Virus record (IMG/VR): IMGVR_UViG_3300048593_000456
Location: 1-26,513 of that record
Direction: 5' to 3' (one strand)
DNA length: 26,513 bases
Source of the DNA: a virus
Taxonomy: Duplodnaviria > Heunggongvirae > Uroviricota > Caudoviricetes
Part shown: positions 20,751 through 26,166 of the stretch, piece by piece
Layout of the letters: each line of letters begins with the position of its first letter
How positions within the stretch are numbered: the first letter of the stretch is position 1
Notes under the pieces: model-generated
Seen by the model: only the letters and a program-made list of their open reading frames with translations
What the model was told of the DNA's origin: nothing
Databases searched by the model: none
Position numbers and translations under genes: made by a program

Positions 20751-20884
20751 GGCGGCAACAGCCTTGAGCCAAGAGGCTATGAAGTTGCAGGGATCGTGGG
20801 TGTGATGGTGCATTGCAGGTCAGCGGAGAAATCTGTACCGGAGAGGCGTTGCCGGGGGAGTAGGTTCAATTCCTACACGGTCCT
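20751..20884 (+). ncRNA. tRNA-shaped ncRNA with 5' hairpin, 12-nt anticodon-position loop and long variable arm
   Basis: GGATCGT/ACGGTCC acceptor, GTAGG-TTCAATT-CCTAC T arm, GCAGG/TCTGT stem, CCGG/CCGG arm; own promoter, followed by a T-rich tract. Confidence 0.6.
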
Positions 20885-20919
20885 TTTTACTTTTTATTTT
20901 TACTCAGGAGAATAAAACA

Positions 20920-23479: not shown

Positions 23480-23696
23480 AACTAAAAAGAAAAAGCTTCG
23501 GGAAAAATCTGTATATCAAAAAGTCCTAAAAAGACGACAGAAGATTCGGGAAGATAACAGGTTAAAATATGTTTTAGGAAAACTTGCAAAGGAAACTGAA
23601 AAGTTGTCTGCTCCTAAAACTATGCTAAGAAAATATAAAATGGAATTGCTTGAAGAACGTAAAACAATTCCTGAAAACGGAGAAAAAAATAGTTGA
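23463..23696 (+). CDS. basic hypothetical protein (77 aa)
   Basis: AAGGG RBS; Lys/Arg-rich. Confidence 0.6.
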   Translation: MLTKHKTKKKKLREKSVYQKVLKRRQKIREDNRLKYVLGKLAKETEKLSAPKTMLRKYKMELLEERKTIPENGEKNS

Positions 23697-23720
23697 CAAA
23701 TCAAATCTGTGAACTATAAT
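23693..23720 (+). promoter_or_regulatory. promoter of the ncRNA-Ro60 operon
   Basis: TTGACA-N16-TATAAT. Confidence 0.85.
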
Positions 23721-23800
23721 AAAACAAAACAGGGATGAATGAAAAAGATTAACTGAATGCTTATCAAAAAACTCTTTTTCAACTTTTTGCCCGTTTTTAT

Positions 23801-23918
23801 TGTGAGATAGCTTAATGGTAGAGCACGTAAAACTCTTGTATACTTTTTTACTATGTACGATAATACAAGATTAACCACTGTTAATGGCGTTGTGTAGGTT
23901 CGATTCCTGCTCTCACAG
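23801..23918 (+). ncRNA. tRNA-Asn(GTT)-shaped RNA with 47-nt hairpin insertion (candidate Y-like RNA 1)
   Basis: TGTGAGA/TCTCACA-G73, D GCTT/GAGC, T GTAGG-TTCGATT-CCTGC. Removing 23828-23874 gives CGCCA-CT-GTT-AA-TGGCG. Insert stem TCTTGTAT/ATACAAGA. Confidence 0.8.
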
Positions 23919-23921
23919 CTT

Positions 23922-24037
23922 CCGCCTATGTTGTAATGGTAGCACAATAACTCAAGCATTGTTTTTTACTATGTACGTTTGATGTTTGATTAACTTTTTG
24001 GTGTAAAGCGGTCTAGGTTCGATTCCTAGTAGGCGGG
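23922..24037 (+). ncRNA. tRNA-shaped RNA (Gln-like scaffold) with hairpin insertion (candidate Y-like RNA 2)
   Basis: CCGCCTA/TAGGCGG-G73, D TTG-TAATGGTAG-CAC, T CTAGG-TTCGATT-CCTAG. Insert stem TCAAGCATTG/TGATGTTTGA with the same 16-nt loop as RNA 1. Confidence 0.75.
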
Positions 24038-24063: not shown

Positions 24064-25638
24064 ATGACTTTTAAGTATTTGAATCAAAAAACTTCTGTTC
24101 AAAATCCTATCGCTGGCCGTAAAGAAATGGTTCAAACCAACGGCGGCGGTTACGCTTTCAAGATTGACCATCTTCAAATGCTTGACAGATTTTTGAGTCT
24201 CGGGGCCACCTCCGGTACTTATTATATGTCGAAAGAAAAAGTACAGTATACTAATACTGAAAACATTGTTTTGTGTATACAGTCTACTCCTAATGAAACA
24301 TTAGATAGAATCGTTGAAGTTTCCAGTAAGGGTCTTGCACATAAGAACGATCACGCTATTTACGCACTTGCGTTAGTTTTTGTTCATGGAAACAACTCTA
24401 TTAAAACTAGGGCCGTTGCGGAATTCAGCAAGGTTGTACGAACTGCTACTCACCTGTTTATGTTTTGTGCTTTCATTAAAGAAATGCGTGGTTTTGGCAA
24501 GCTTGTGCGTCAAGCCATCAACAATTGGTATGTATCAAAAGATACTAAGTCTTTTGCATATCAGGTTTCTAAGTATCAGCAACGTGATGGTTGGTCTCAC
24601 AAAGACGTATTTTGCCTGACTCACCCAAAGTTTGGTAAGACCACTAATATGAATAAAATTGCTAAGTGGGCTATGGGTAACTTGGATACTTCCAACCTAA
24701 AGCCCTCTGATGAAGGACTTGTTCTATGCAAGGCAGTTGATGATGCAAAACACATCAAAAACGCTAAAGAATTAGTAGATCATATCTCGAAGTATAAACT
24801 ACAGAGAGAACATATTCCTACTGAATTTTTGAATAAGCCTGAAATTCAAGAAGCTTTGCTTCCGCATATGAACGCTACGGCACTTATCAGAAGTCTTTCG
24901 GTAATGACTGCCAGCGGGCTTATCTCGCCACTGTCTAGCTCAACAAAGTATATTGTCGGCAGGCTAAATGATAAGGATTGGCTTAGAGGTCAAAGAATTC
25001 ATCCACTTTCTATTCTAGTCGCGAATAGAATTTATGGACAAGGCAGGGGCTTGAAAGGTTCGCTTACTTGGAATACAGATAGAAATATTTTGGACGCACT
25101 AGAAAATGCTTTTTATAATGCTTTTGATGCTATCCAGCCTACTAATAAGAATTATATGTATGGAATTGATGTTTCGGGTTCCATGAGTTTTAGTTTTAGC
25201 GACACGCCATTGCAATTCTGTGAAGTTGCGGCTGTTCTTGCAATGGCTCATGTACGCACAGAGCCTTGGACATTCGTTGGCGGTTTTGCGAGCAACTTTG
25301 TAGATTTAAAAATATCTAGCAAAGATACATTGAAGTCTGCTACTGAAAAATGCCTTAAGAATAATTTCGGATCGACTAATCCTTCCGCAGTTCTTTCTTA
25401 TGCCAAGCAAAATAAAATGGATGTTGATTGTTTCATAATTATCACAGATAACGAAGTTAATTCTGGTAATCACGTTTCGTCCGAACTTAAATCTAACTTT
25501 CCTAAGTCTAAGATGATTGTTTGCGGGCTTGCGGTAAATAACTTTAGCATTGCAGATCCTAAAAATCCTAACATGCTAGATATCGCTGGATTTTCCCCGG
25601 AAATTACCTCTGCGATTTCTTCGTTCACACGCTCTTGA
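24064..25638 (+). CDS. rsr: Ro60 / TROVE-vWA RNA-binding protein (Rsr homolog)
   Basis: 524 aa; N-terminal NGGGYAF...LDRFL.LG..SGTYY, KYQQRDGWSHKD, HPL, vWA MIDAS DVSGSM, ITDNE, NNFSIADP..P.MLD.AGF; GGAG RBS. Confidence 0.93.
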   Translation: MTFKYLNQKTSVQNPIAGRKEMVQTNGGGYAFKIDHLQMLDRFLSLGATSGTYYMSKEKVQYTNTENIVLCIQSTPNETLDRIVEVSSKGLAHKNDHAIYALALVFVHGNNSIKTRAVAEFSKVVRTATHLFMFCAFIKEMRGFGKLVRQAINNWYVSKDTKSFAYQVSKYQQRDGWSHKDVFCLTHPKFGKTTNMNKIAKWAMGNLDTSNLKPSDEGLVLCKAVDDAKHIKNAKELVDHISKYKLQREHIPTEFLNKPEIQEALLPHMNATALIRSLSVMTASGLISPLSSSTKYIVGRLNDKDWLRGQRIHPLSILVANRIYGQGRGLKGSLTWNTDRNILDALENAFYNAFDAIQPTNKNYMYGIDVSGSMSFSFSDTPLQFCEVAAVLAMAHVRTEPWTFVGGFASNFVDLKISSKDTLKSATEKCLKNNFGSTNPSAVLSYAKQNKMDVDCFIIITDNEVNSGNHVSSELKSNFPKSKMIVCGLAVNNFSIADPKNPNMLDIAGFSPEITSAISSFTRS

Positions 25639-25662
25639 CAAATGCTGATCTCGTGTTAAAAT
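25635..25662 (+). promoter_or_regulatory. sigma70-type promoter
   Basis: TTGACA-N16-TAAAAT, TG extended; the -35 contains the Ro60 stop codon. Confidence 0.75.
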
Positions 25663-25694
25663 AGCCAGAGAACAACTCTCTGGCTTTATTTTTT
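25663..25694 (+). terminator. Rho-independent terminator of the Ro60 operon
   Basis: AGCCAGAGA-ACAAC-TCTCTGGCT followed by a T-rich tract. Confidence 0.75.
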
Positions 25695-25695
25695 T

Positions 25696-26166
25696 ATGGA
25701 GACTACTGTGGAACTAATTATTTTTTTTATTATTCTTTCTCCTGTTATAGCAGCTCTGTATGTATCGTATCAAGCGAAGGACGGAAAATCTCAAGGATTC
25801 ACACATAAACATGAGCCGGTAAAATATGTTACGCCAGAGCAGCTTATGCTTAGAAATACCTACATTCGTGCTTTAGATGGGGATTGGCGTGCCAGAGAAT
25901 GGCTGACAAAGAACTTTTTTGATGCGGATAAACTTAGGGAAGAAAACAAGAAAAAACCTCAAAAACCAAAACCTAAAAAGCAAAATACTCCCAAGAAAAA
26001 CACTACTCCGAGCGATAATAAGCAAAAGCTTATAGTTTCTGAGGCTGTATCGGCTTTAATTAGCCTTGGTCATTCTCCCACGCAAGCTAAAATAATTGTG
26101 CAAAACAAGCTATCGGAAAAAGTATATAAATCAACAGAGGAATTAATTACAGATGTATACGGATAG
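25696..26166 (+). CDS. membrane-anchored protein with RuvA C-terminal-like domain
   Basis: N-terminal TM, Lys/Pro linker, C-terminal EAVSALISLGHSPTQAK.IV...STEELI resembling RuvA domain III. Confidence 0.65.
   Translation: METTVELIIFFIILSPVIAALYVSYQAKDGKSQGFTHKHEPVKYVTPEQLMLRNTYIRALDGDWRAREWLTKNFFDADKLREENKKKPQKPKPKKQNTPKKNTTPSDNKQKLIVSEAVSALISLGHSPTQAKIIVQNKLSEKVYKSTEELITDVYG

What the first reader, a model, noticed from the sequence alone, without database searches (positions are those of the whole stretch)
23801..23918. RNA 1 is a perfect tRNA-Asn once 47 nt are removed: intron or grafted arm?
Seen: deleting 23828-23874 leaves a 71-nt cloverleaf with a fully paired anticodon stem CGCCA/TGGCG, canonical loop CT-GTT-AA, U1-A72 and G73. 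Established: GUU and G73 are Asn identity elements, and bacterial tRNA introns are normally self-splicing group I/II introns in the anticodon loop. Inference: an insert at 28/29 with the anticodon arm still perfect suggests selection to keep a decodable tRNA. It is either spliced by an unknown nuclease/ligase route (RtcB is often linked to Ro60) or works as a 5-way-junction tRNA.
Basis: partly seen in the sequence, partly recalled or inferred. Interest (0 to 1): 0.75.

Follow-up and report, generated by a model that had tools for sequence, protein, structure and literature searches.

The report
Phage Ro60 partner RNA shaped like tRNA
The "tRNA-Asn with a 47-base insert" is most likely a partner RNA (Y RNA) of the phage's Ro60 protein: the insert looks like the Ro60-binding handle rather than an intron, and the Asn anticodon is not kept even in the closest relatives.

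Summary
Removing 23828-23874 leaves a 71-nt cloverleaf that ARAGORN calls tRNA-Asn(GTT).

The intron reading does not hold. The insert has the parts of a Y-RNA Ro60-binding module, closed into a hairpin:
- a bulged-C lower helix
- a covarying upper stem
- a UUAUC-like motif (here AUUAAC)

RNA1, RNA2 and Ro60 lie between one consensus promoter and one terminator. A covariance model finds the same design beside Ro60 in 20 of 80 phage loci and 23 of 80 bacterial or MAG loci. All seven helices covary.

The parts match the published YrlA Y RNA, but in normal tRNA order. The acceptor end is open and the Ro60 stem is closed.

The split anticodon arm keeps its shape: 2+3 bp and a 7-nt loop with U33, R37 and A38. 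Its triplet is free, with 22 different triplets in 31 members. In the window's own clade the loop reads GUU, GCU, an 8-nt loop, or a broken arm. It changes at about the neutral rate, while the rest of the RNA is 10-30 times more conserved.

The phage also has an ordinary tRNA-Asn elsewhere. No RNA data could be obtained. The scan has noted this architecture before on a close relative (e1-5373037).

The parts
23693..23720 (+). Sigma-70-type promoter TTGACA-16-TATAAT that would drive the leader, RNA1, RNA2 and Ro60
   Evidence: 12 of 12 consensus matches, the best site in the scanned region. It is conserved in L001 and L002. No transcription data.
23731..23796 (+). Leader that looks like a small conventional Y RNA. 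It has GGGAUGAAUG, a short stem, GAUUAAC, a loop, the returning stem, then CAACUUUUUGCCC. This is a candidate only.
   Evidence: It folds into a terminal stem plus an upper stem, like the Y-like unit at L004:1399-1470. The 3' part is conserved in L001 and L002. No Rfam match.
23801..23918 (+). RNA1: a tRNA-shaped Y RNA with acceptor 23801-23807/23911-23917, D arm 23810-23824, T arm 23894-23910 and G73 at 23918
   Evidence: Rfam tRNA 43.5 bits. Model R1 scores 123 bits. Acceptor, D and T helices are paired in 93-99% of cells across the family, with many double changes.
23826..23827 (+). 5' strand (CG) of the 2-bp helix that closes the three-way junction. It pairs with 23888-23889.
   Evidence: Helix 3 is 96.9% paired, with 19 and 29 sequences changed on both sides.
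23828..23874 (+). The 47-nt "insert", read as a closed Ro60-binding module. It has a linker UAAAAC and an upper stem 23834-23841/23863-23870. The lower hairpin 23846-23860 carries a bulged C at 23858, followed by the AUUAAC motif (UUAUC equivalent).
   Evidence: The upper stem covaries (85.7% paired, all 8 pairs with double changes) and the lower stem is 74.9% paired. Family consensus is CUUGCCC-loop-GGGCCGAAG-stem-GGUUAUC. Sister units in L013 match the nematode Y-RNA family RF01656. The motif corresponds to GNCGAAN0-1G of Chen 2014.
23875..23887 (+). Mini-hairpin CCA-CUGUUAA-UGG, the anticodon-like arm. The GUU triplet is at 23880-23882.
   Evidence: Helix 6 is 89.5% paired. In 7-nt loops U33 is present in 28/31, R37 in 31/31 and A38 in 27/31, with 22 different triplets. 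The loop differs in L001, L002, L179 and L180.
23922..24037 (+). RNA2: a second tRNA-shaped Y RNA. It has the same 16-nt lower-stem sequence, a different covarying upper stem and a mini-hairpin with loop UUGGUGU.
   Evidence: Rfam tRNA 31.9 bits. R1 scores 90.3 bits. It is identical in L001 and differs from L002 only in the mini-hairpin loop.
24064..25638 (+). Ro60 (TROVE plus vWA) gene, 524 aa, the presumed protein partner
   Evidence: Pfam TROVE 7.8e-33 and vWA_Ro60 1.7e-36. PDB 1YVP Xenopus Ro60 5.5e-83 and 2NVO Deinococcus Rsr 1.2e-72. K170, R174 and H187 of Xenopus Ro60 align to identical residues.
25663..25695 (+). Intrinsic-terminator-like hairpin plus T run that would close the operon
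   Evidence: 9-bp stem with 5 G-C pairs, followed by a T-rich tail.

Best explanation
RNA1 is a Y RNA of the YrlA kind, a non-coding partner of the phage's Ro60 protein, built in ordinary tRNA order.

**Shown by sequence and comparison**
- One consensus promoter (23693-23720) precedes a leader, RNA1, RNA2 and the Ro60 gene, followed by a terminator.
- RNA1 has a complete tRNA core: a 7-bp open acceptor stem and D and T arms with the elbow nucleotides.
- Its anticodon stem is split after 2 bp by a three-way junction.
- One branch of the junction is the 47-nt module. This holds a covarying upper stem and a short lower helix with a bulged C, sequence-identical in RNA1 and RNA2. It ends in a UUAUC-like motif. 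These are the hallmarks of the Ro60-binding helix of Y RNAs.
- The other branch is a 3-bp hairpin with an anticodon-like 7-nt loop.

**Inferred**
- RNase P and 3' trimming release RNA1 and RNA2 from the operon transcript.
- Ro60 binds the bulged-C helix.
- The tRNA-shaped body, possibly CCA-tailed, recruits a tRNA-binding effector or shields or gates Ro60.
- The particle acts in RNA quality control, RNA repair or counter-defence during infection.

The GUU triplet plus G73 in this phage would then be a lineage-specific state of a fast-changing loop, not a maintained Asn decoder. The 47 nt stay in the mature RNA.
For: 1. **Linkage.** RNA1 and RNA2 lie 146 nt and 27 nt upstream of a canonical Ro60 gene, within one promoter-terminator unit.
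2. **Family.** Model R1 finds 102-207-nt tRNA-shaped RNAs on the Ro60 strand in 20 of 80 IMG/VR loci and 23 of 80 bacterial or MAG loci, often in tandem. In five whole phage records, all 7 long matches sit beside Ro60. Every other match is a 71-76-nt tRNA.
3. **Structure.** 91.5% of cells are paired, against 60% in shuffles and 39-45% in slid controls. All seven helices show double changes, including the insert's two stems and the 2-bp and 3-bp halves of the split anticodon stem.
4. **Motifs.**
   - Family consensus in the insert is CUUGCCC-loop-GGGCCGAAG-stem-GGUUAUC. This is the 3' and 5' strands of a Y-RNA terminal stem joined by a loop.
   - Free-standing sister units in L013 match the nematode Y-RNA family RF01656 at E = 4.7e-5.
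   - GNCGAAN0-1G is the proposed Rsr-binding motif of YrlA (PMC4201824).
   - The window's GUA[C]GA paired with UUU-UAC keeps the helix, the bulged C, a G-U pair and an A-U pair through paired changes.
5. **Same parts as published YrlA.** Mycobacteriophage ET08 YrlA carries the motif, upper stem, UUAC, a 3-bp hairpin with loop AUUGAAA, a 2-bp AG/CU helix, and T, acceptor and D arms. They are in permuted order.
6. **The anticodon is not conserved.**
   - The loop is CUGUUAA in the window, AUGCUAA in L001 and AUUGCUAA in L002.
   - L179 has a broken arm. L180/L181 have AUGCUAA.
   - Loop substitutions number 2/14 and 3/14, plus two single-base insertions (both in L002). Four-fold sites of Ro60 differ by 14.7% and 21.2%.
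   - The other 220 nt of RNA1 plus RNA2 differ by 0.5% and 1.4%.
7. **Triplets do not fit identity rules.** There are 22 triplets in 31 loops. Ser-type triplets (GCU, UGA) occur with only 4-5-nt variable regions.
8. **An ordinary tRNA-Asn(GTT)** exists at 49654-49727 of the same record.
Against: - No RNA, binding or processing data exist for this phage.
- The window's lower-stem motif (GUACGAU, GUACGUU) matches the published GNCGAAN0-1G only in its CGA core.
- Rfam YrlA (RF02553) does not match RNA1 or RNA2. It also scores the published ET08 YrlA at only 37 bits, against a cut-off of 69.
- GUU, G73 and U1-A72 together are the AsnRS identity set, so charging of this particular RNA is not excluded.
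- The pair counts come from an alignment fitted to the model, which leans towards the structure.
- A closed loop at the end of the Ro60-binding helix has not been shown to be compatible with Ro60 binding.
Confidence: 0.85

Rival explanations
1. RNA1 is an intron-containing tRNA-Asn. An unknown nuclease removes 23828-23874 and a ligase joins positions 28 and 29, giving a working decoder.
For: - The spliced product is a flawless tRNA-Asn(gtt) cloverleaf.
- The phage record encodes an RNA ligase (PF09414, 4.7e-14) followed by an RlaP RNA-repair nucleotidyltransferase, about 27 kb away.
Against: - At 47 nt the insert is far too small for a self-splicing intron, and no intron family matches at E <= 10.
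- The unpaired stretches UAAAAC and UUAA face each other at one junction. They are not staggered by a 4-bp helix, so there is no bulge-helix-bulge motif.
- The record has no splicing endonuclease and no RtcB.
- The insert is the most conserved and covarying part of the RNA, and it carries protein-binding motifs. The anticodon is not conserved in relatives.
- Many family members have no anticodon hairpin to restore, for example L014 and L100:1115-1223.
- An ordinary tRNA-Asn is present.
Confidence: 0.03
2. The unspliced RNA1 keeps the arm but is still recognised by AsnRS through GUU and G73. It would be charged and used either in translation or, like tmRNA, as an aminoacylated non-decoding RNA.
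For: - GUU, G73 and U1-A72 match the known bacterial Asn identity set. The loop CUGUUAA is identical to that of the phage's own tRNA-Asn.
- The 2+3 bp could stack into a normal-length anticodon stem.
- M. smegmatis YrlA receives CCA after RNase P cleavage (PMC4201824).
Against: - L001, L002, L179 and L180/L181 carry nearly the same body with GCU, an 8-nt loop or a broken arm. The conserved function therefore cannot depend on Asn identity.
- Across the family, triplet and discriminator do not follow identity rules. GAU comes with C73 and UUU with G73.
- A 47-nt arm, presumably carrying a 60-kDa protein and projecting from positions 28/29, should hinder entry to the ribosome. This last point is inference.
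Confidence: 0.07
3. RNA1 is a decaying tRNA gene disrupted by an insertion, with no function.
For: ARAGORN default mode does not call it. The anticodon loop drifts at about the neutral rate.
Against: - Outside the loop, RNA1 and RNA2 change 10-30 times more slowly than four-fold sites of the adjacent gene.
- All helices covary across phages and bacteria.
- The position next to Ro60 is constant.
Confidence: 0.02

Closest known systems
YrlA (Y RNA-like A) of Salmonella, Mycobacterium smegmatis and mycobacteriophages. Sources: Chen et al. 2014 (PMC4201824); structure in Wang et al. 2018 (10.1101/312249); Rfam RF02553.
   Same: - Encoded next to Ro60 on the same strand.
- Ro60-binding stem with a GNCGAA-type motif.
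- tRNA-like T and D arms with the elbow nucleotides, and D stem GCUC/GAGC.
- In ET08, also the UUAC motif, a 3-bp hairpin with a 7-nt loop and the 2-bp helix.
   Different: - Published YrlA is a circularly permuted tRNA. Its 5' and 3' ends lie in the Ro60 stem, and its acceptor stem is closed by a loop.
- Here the acceptor stem is open and made by the RNA's own ends, 7 of 7 pairs. The Ro60 stem is closed by a 3-nt loop.
- RF02553 does not match RNA1 or RNA2.
Deinococcus radiodurans Yrn1
   Same: A Ro60 (Rsr) partner with tRNA-like features, including a possible anticodon-like arm with a 5-bp stem (PMC4201824).
   Different: In Yrn1 the Ro60-binding stem takes the place of the acceptor stem, the loop has 6 nt and no full D arm is evident. 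Here the Ro60 module branches from the anticodon stem and the acceptor end is free.
Metazoan Y RNAs and nematode stem-bulge RNAs (Rfam RF01656)
   Same: A bulged-C lower helix, an upper stem and a UUAUC motif at the start of the loop. Free-standing units in relative L013 match RF01656 at E = 4.7e-5.
   Different: Those RNAs have open termini at the lower helix and no tRNA module. The window's own RNAs do not reach any Y-RNA model in Rfam.
Thermus phage phiLo Yrl1 and Yrl2 with phage Ro60 (PMC12135203)
   Same: Two Y-like RNAs upstream of a phage Ro60 gene, identified through the CGAA motif. Binding was shown in vitro for that phage.
   Different: They are described as conventional stem-bulge-stem Y RNAs, not tRNA-shaped. 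That Ro60 is only distantly related to this one (E = 8.5e-4).
Intron-containing tRNAs: bacterial and phage group I introns in the anticodon loop, and archaeal bulge-helix-bulge introns at non-canonical positions
   Same: An insertion inside the anticodon arm whose removal restores a cloverleaf.
   Different: No ribozyme core, no bulge-helix-bulge motif and no endonuclease. The insert is the conserved, protein-binding part, and the anticodon is not conserved.

Membership tests
YrlA-type Y RNA | Encoded within about 4 kb of a Ro60 ortholog, on the same strand | tested here: met
   RNA1 ends 146 nt upstream of Ro60. All long R1 matches in 160 loci are on the Ro60 strand. In five whole phage records, all 7 long matches are beside Ro60.
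YrlA-type Y RNA | GNCGAAN0-1G motif in a stem that binds Ro60 | tested here: inconclusive
   The family consensus GGGCCGAAG fits. The window has GUACGAU and GUACGUU, keeping the CGA core, the bulged C and the helix through paired changes. Binding was not tested.
YrlA-type Y RNA | tRNA-like T and D arms with conserved elbow nucleotides | tested here: met
   Rfam tRNA scores 43.5 bits. The D loop carries GG, the T loop is UUCGAUU, and A15/U48 is possible. D and T helices are 97-99% paired.
YrlA-type Y RNA | Circularly permuted order: ends in the Ro60 stem and acceptor stem closed by a loop | tested here: not met
   The acceptor UGUGAGA/UCUCACA is formed by the RNA's own ends. The 3' acceptor strand of RNA1 is not complementary to the 5' strand of RNA2. 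The lower helix is closed by UAU. Acceptor pairing is 93% across the family.
YrlA-type Y RNA | Match to Rfam RF02553 at its gathering score | tested here: not met
   There is no match on RNA1 or RNA2 at E <= 10. This is a weak test, because the published ET08 YrlA reaches only 37 bits against a cut-off of 69.
Decoding tRNA-Asn | Cloverleaf with a continuous 5-bp anticodon stem and a 7-nt loop | tested here: not met
   The feature appears only after 47 nt are removed in silico.
Decoding tRNA-Asn | Anticodon conserved among orthologs | tested here: not met
   Window GUU, L001 GCU, L002 8-nt loop, L179 broken arm, L180/L181 GCU.
Decoding tRNA-Asn | Aminoacylation by AsnRS (GUU plus G73) | not testable with these tools
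   The identity nucleotides are present in the window's RNA1 only. No biochemical data.
Group I or II self-splicing intron in tRNA | Ribozyme core of at least about 200 nt, inserted in the anticodon loop | tested here: not met
   The insert is 47 nt and lies in the stem at positions 28/29. No intron family matches at E <= 10.
Archaeal-type spliced tRNA intron | Bulge-helix-bulge motif at the two junctions, plus a splicing endonuclease | tested here: not met
   The two single-stranded linkers sit at the same three-way junction. PF01974 is absent from the 75%-complete record, and the controls gave matches.

The most novel reading that the evidence does not exclude
The anticodon-like hairpin may be a functional, fast-evolving "display loop". 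In this reading, tRNA-order Y RNAs present a genuine anticodon-arm mimic on a Ro60 particle. Its triplet differs between close phages and between tandem paralogs in one genome.

The loop would then work as a decoy, sensor or guide for anticodon-directed enzymes, such as host anticodon nucleases or tRNA repair and modification enzymes. In this phage it would mimic tRNA-Asn.

A second novel point concerns origins. Tandem tRNA-order units already contain, across their junction, every part of canonical YrlA in the right order. They could therefore be the missing intermediate in the dimeric-tRNA origin proposed for YrlA by Sim and Wolin (cited).
Probability: 0.15. Interest if true: 0.75.

Novelty: new variant of a known kind. 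Interest (0 to 1): 0.55.

Why it matters
- **Annotation.** This settles an annotation trap. tRNA finders in intron mode call these RNAs intron-bearing tRNAs. One GenBank phage record annotates part of a YrlA unit as tRNA-Arg.
- **Y-RNA biology.** The published picture has YrlA as a circularly permuted tRNA without a free acceptor end or anticodon loop. These RNAs have both. They are common beside Ro60 in phages and in several bacterial phyla.
- **New testable questions.** An open 7-bp acceptor stem makes RNase P processing, CCA addition and perhaps charging plausible. That widens the range of possible effectors and bears on how Y RNAs arose from tRNAs.
- **Phage biology.** A Ro60-like protein of phage Bas63 was reported to counter a host defence. 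Its authors guessed that neighbouring "tRNA genes" might be Y RNAs (10.1101/2024.10.10.617714).

Tried and rejected
- **Close DNA relatives.** Megablast of the locus against GenBank phages found nothing.
- **Rfam.** No intron, Y_RNA or YrlA family matches the region at E <= 10.
- **Canonical YrlA across the RNA1-RNA2 junction** (T arm of RNA1 plus D arm of RNA2). Rejected because the two acceptor strands (UCUCACA and CCGCCUA) and the two upper-stem strands are not complementary. Each unit pairs perfectly within itself.
- **Alternative hairpin AUUAAC/GUUAAU** seen in the minimum-energy fold of RNA1. Rejected because the C35 in L001 breaks it and the family motif UUAUC cannot form it.
- **RNA1 as a copy of the phage's tRNA-Asn.** Rejected because the spliced RNA1 is no closer to it (47 identities) than to tRNA-Ile (50).
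- **Diversifying selection on the loop.** Not supported. Loop divergence equals the four-fold-site rate, so relaxed constraint is enough to explain it.
- **RNA-splicing enzymes in the record.** RtcB and the splicing endonuclease are absent. The Rnl1 search was uninformative because its controls were silent.
- **Folding energy.** z-scores of RNA1 and RNA2 are unremarkable.

Full report
**Observation**

The region 23801-23918 matches the Rfam tRNA model end to end at 43.5 bits (cut-off 29), with about 60 nt inserted in the anticodon arm. A second unit at 23922-24037 scores 31.9 bits. ARAGORN misses both by default. In intron mode it calls 23801-23919 tRNA-Asn(gtt) with a 47-nt insert.

Joining 23801-23827 to 23875-23918 gives a 71-nt sequence that ARAGORN draws as a clean tRNA-Asn. 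It has U1-A72, G73, stem CGCCA/UGGCG and loop CUGUUAA.

Two corrections apply:
- The unspliced RNA is a four-way tRNA core plus a separate three-way junction in the anticodon stem, not a five-way junction.
- The same 111.5-kb phage record, about 75% complete, already holds an ordinary tRNA-Asn(GTT) at 49654-49727.

**Context**

The ORF at 24064-25638, 27 nt after RNA2, is a canonical Ro60:
- Pfam TROVE 7.8e-33 and vWA_Ro60 1.7e-36.
- Xenopus Ro60 1YVP at 5.5e-83 and Deinococcus Rsr 2NVO at 1.2e-72.
- K170, R174 and H187 of the Xenopus protein align to identical residues. As I recall it, K170 and R174 are needed for Y-RNA binding. That is my recollection, not a test.

A perfect TTGACA-16-TATAAT promoter lies at 23693-23720 and a terminator at 25663-25685. 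The leader, RNA1, RNA2 and Ro60 therefore look like one operon.

**What the insert is**

RNA1 and RNA2 share the same 16 nt (UUUUUUACUAUGUACG), flanked by stems that differ between the two RNAs but pair within each. The shared stretch folds into a short helix with a bulged C (23858). It reads G-C, U-A, A-U, [C], G-U, A-U, and is closed by UAU. AUUAAC follows the upper stem.

Long tRNA matches with similar inserts lie upstream of Ro60 in other IMG/VR phages. Their inserts read CUUGCCC-loop-GGGCCGAAG-stem-GGUUAUC. This is the 3' strand and the 5' strand of the terminal stem of a Y RNA, joined by a loop. Three results support that reading:
- Free-standing units beside the tRNA-shaped one in L013 match the nematode stem-bulge (Y RNA) family RF01656 at E = 4.7e-5. 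They show the same GGCCGAAG, GGUUAUC and CAACUUGCCCC blocks.
- Chen et al. 2014 define GNCGAAN0-1G as the likely Rsr-binding motif of YrlA, related to the GGUCCGA contacted by Xenopus Ro60.
- The window's GUACGA keeps the CGA core and the bulged C. The two pairs that differ from the consensus changed on both strands.

**Family and structure**

A covariance model was built from seven such RNAs.
- It finds 102-207-nt matches on the Ro60 strand in IMG/VR loci and in bacterial or MAG loci fetched through Ro60.
- After filtering for at least 6 of 7 acceptor pairs and at least 6 of 8 upper-stem pairs, 71 distinct RNAs remain. They come from 20 phage and 23 bacterial or MAG loci. The bacterial phyla are Chloroflexota, Myxococcota, Gemmatimonadota, Armatimonadota and Planctomycetota, and the set includes Polyangium sp. 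6x1.
- Over five whole phage records, all 7 long matches lie beside Ro60. Every other match is a normal 71-76-nt tRNA.

On the phage alignment, 91.5% of cells are paired. This compares with 60% in shuffles and 39-45% when partners are slid.

| Helix | Cells paired |
|---|---|
| Acceptor | 93% |
| D | 97% |
| 2-bp junction helix | 97% |
| Upper stem of the insert | 86% |
| Lower stem of the insert | 75% |
| 3-bp mini-hairpin | 90% |
| T | 99% |

Each helix has pairs changed on both sides. The alignment was fitted to the model, which favours the structure. The slid controls argue that the signal is real.

**Relation to YrlA**

Published YrlA is described as a circularly permuted tRNA with a closed acceptor stem-loop, no free CCA end and, in Salmonella, no anticodon loop.

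The YrlA of mycobacteriophage ET08 (L083, about 1128-1290) reads in this order:
- GCCGAGAG motif, upper stem, UUAC
- a 3-bp hairpin with loop AUUGAAA, then AG
- variable region, T arm, closed acceptor hairpin, D arm
- CU, and the returning strands

Every part of RNA1 is there, including the mini-hairpin and the 2-bp helix. The break is simply in a different place. RNA1 is thus the same machine in unpermuted, tRNA order.

The topology in the window is not ambiguous. UGUGAGA pairs with UCUCACA within RNA1, and CCGCCUA pairs with UAGGCGG within RNA2. The strands that would have to pair across the RNA1-RNA2 junction are not complementary.

Rfam's YrlA model does not see RNA1 or RNA2. It also scores ET08's published YrlA below its cut-off. 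I found no paper in the held library that describes the unpermuted form. The library is incomplete, and two reviews could not be opened.

**Is the anticodon kept?**

It is not. In the window's own clade the RNA1 loop varies:

| Source | Ro60 identity to window | RNA1 loop |
|---|---|---|
| Window | - | CUGUUAA |
| L001 | 96% | AUGCUAA |
| L002 | 95% | AUUGCUAA (8 nt) |
| L179 | 83% | CCA-UGAUUAA-CGG, with an A-C closing mismatch and no U33 |
| L180/L181 | 64% | AUGCUAA |

Rates of change against the window:

| Sites compared | L001 | L002 |
|---|---|---|
| Four-fold sites of Ro60 | 14.7% | 21.2% |
| The 14 mini-hairpin loop positions of RNA1 plus RNA2 | 2 substitutions | 3 substitutions and two insertions |
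| The other 220 nt of RNA1 plus RNA2 | 1 substitution | 3 substitutions and one deletion |

The loop therefore drifts at about the neutral rate while the body is under strong purifying selection. A decoder would show the opposite pattern.

Across the family, 36 of 71 members have the 2+3-bp split stem, and 31 of those have a 7-nt loop.
- U33 is present in 28/31, a purine at 37 in 31/31 and A38 in 27/31. There are 22 different triplets.
- Ser-type triplets occur with 4-5-nt variable regions. Discriminators do not follow identity rules.
- The other members lack the hairpin altogether, for example L014 and L100:1115-1223.
- Tandem paralogs within one genome differ mainly in this loop, as in L127 and L115.

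The shape of an anticodon arm is favoured, but no particular codon reading is.

**Splicing**

- At 47 nt the insert cannot be a group I or II intron, and no intron family matches.
- The linkers UAAAAC and UUAA face each other at one junction rather than flanking a 4-bp helix, so there is no bulge-helix-bulge motif.
- The record lacks a splicing endonuclease and RtcB.
- It does encode an RNA ligase followed by an RlaP nucleotidyltransferase at 50966-53157, beside the second tRNA cluster. This fits an RNA-repair lifestyle but says nothing specific about RNA1.

**Mechanism proposed**

Shown:
- operon layout
- tRNA core
- covarying three-way junction
- Ro60-type motifs
- linkage to Ro60

Inferred:
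- RNase P and 3' trimming release RNA1 and RNA2.
- Ro60 binds the bulged-C helix.
- The tRNA-shaped body recruits or blocks a tRNA-binding factor.
- The particle acts in RNA surveillance, repair or counter-defence.

A Ro60-like protein of phage Bas63 was reported to counter the ppl defence system. The authors guessed that neighbouring "tRNA genes" might be Y RNAs.

Charging of this particular RNA by AsnRS remains possible, but it cannot be the conserved function.

**Earlier notes of this scan**

A follow-up on a close relative reached the same architectural reading (e1-5373037). I reached my reading before seeing these notes and re-tested the claims here.

**Verdict**

- "Grafted arm" is right. 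"Intron" and "maintained Asn decoder" are not supported.
- The RNA is a new topological variant of a known class, the YrlA-type Y RNAs. It is widespread beside Ro60.

Noticed in passing
window 23731-23796: The leader between the promoter and RNA1 looks like a small conventional Y RNA. It has GGGAUGAAUG, a stem, GAUUAAC, a loop, the returning stem and CAACUUUUUGCCC. RNase P cleavage at RNA1 would form its 3' end, so the operon may encode three Ro60 partner RNAs.
   Followed up: partly
L001:2664-2858: In the 96%-identical relative, about 195 nt are inserted between RNA1 and RNA2. The insertion includes a promoter-like TTGATT...TATAGAAT. In the window only 3 nt separate the two RNAs.
   Followed up: no
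G000:C1:50966-53157 (L086:904-3095), outside the window: An RNA ligase (PF09414 with a PHA02142 OB fold) is immediately followed by an RlaP RNA-repair nucleotidyltransferase (PF10127). They sit beside the second tRNA cluster and look like a phage RNA-repair module.
   Followed up: partly
L084:937-1013 (Microbacterium phage Magritte, OR553905.1 76028-76104): The annotated tRNA-Arg(tct) overlaps one unit of a tandem array of canonical permuted YrlA RNAs. Its "anticodon arm" is the YrlA mini-hairpin UCA-CUUCUAA-UGA, so this is probably a mis-annotation.
   Followed up: partly
L180:735-1164 and L181:736-1164: Relatives with 64%-identical Ro60 carry three tandem tRNA-order units. In L180 the middle unit has a 3-nt loop in place of the anticodon-like loop; in L181 it has no clear hairpin.
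   Followed up: partly
L127:53-688, L115:3352-4040, L100:970-1223: Bacterial or MAG Ro60 loci hold arrays of 2-4 paralogous tRNA-order Y RNAs. The paralogs are 65-87% identical and differ most in the mini-hairpin loop. One paralog, L100:1115-1223, has lost the hairpin entirely.
   Followed up: partly
window 20790-20885; G000:C1:49073-49161 and 49825-49895: ARAGORN gives three odd calls: a tRNA-Leu(caa) with a 7-nt "intron", an 89-nt tRNA-Val(tac) called with a 17-nt intron in intron mode, and a tRNA with an undetermined 2-nt anticodon. This phage may carry further non-standard tRNA-like RNAs.
   Followed up: no
window 25635-26166: A second strong promoter (TTGACA-16-TAAAAT with TG) overlaps the end of Ro60. 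The next ORF (25696-26166, weak RuvA_C match) keeps its position after Ro60 in L179-L182.
   Followed up: no
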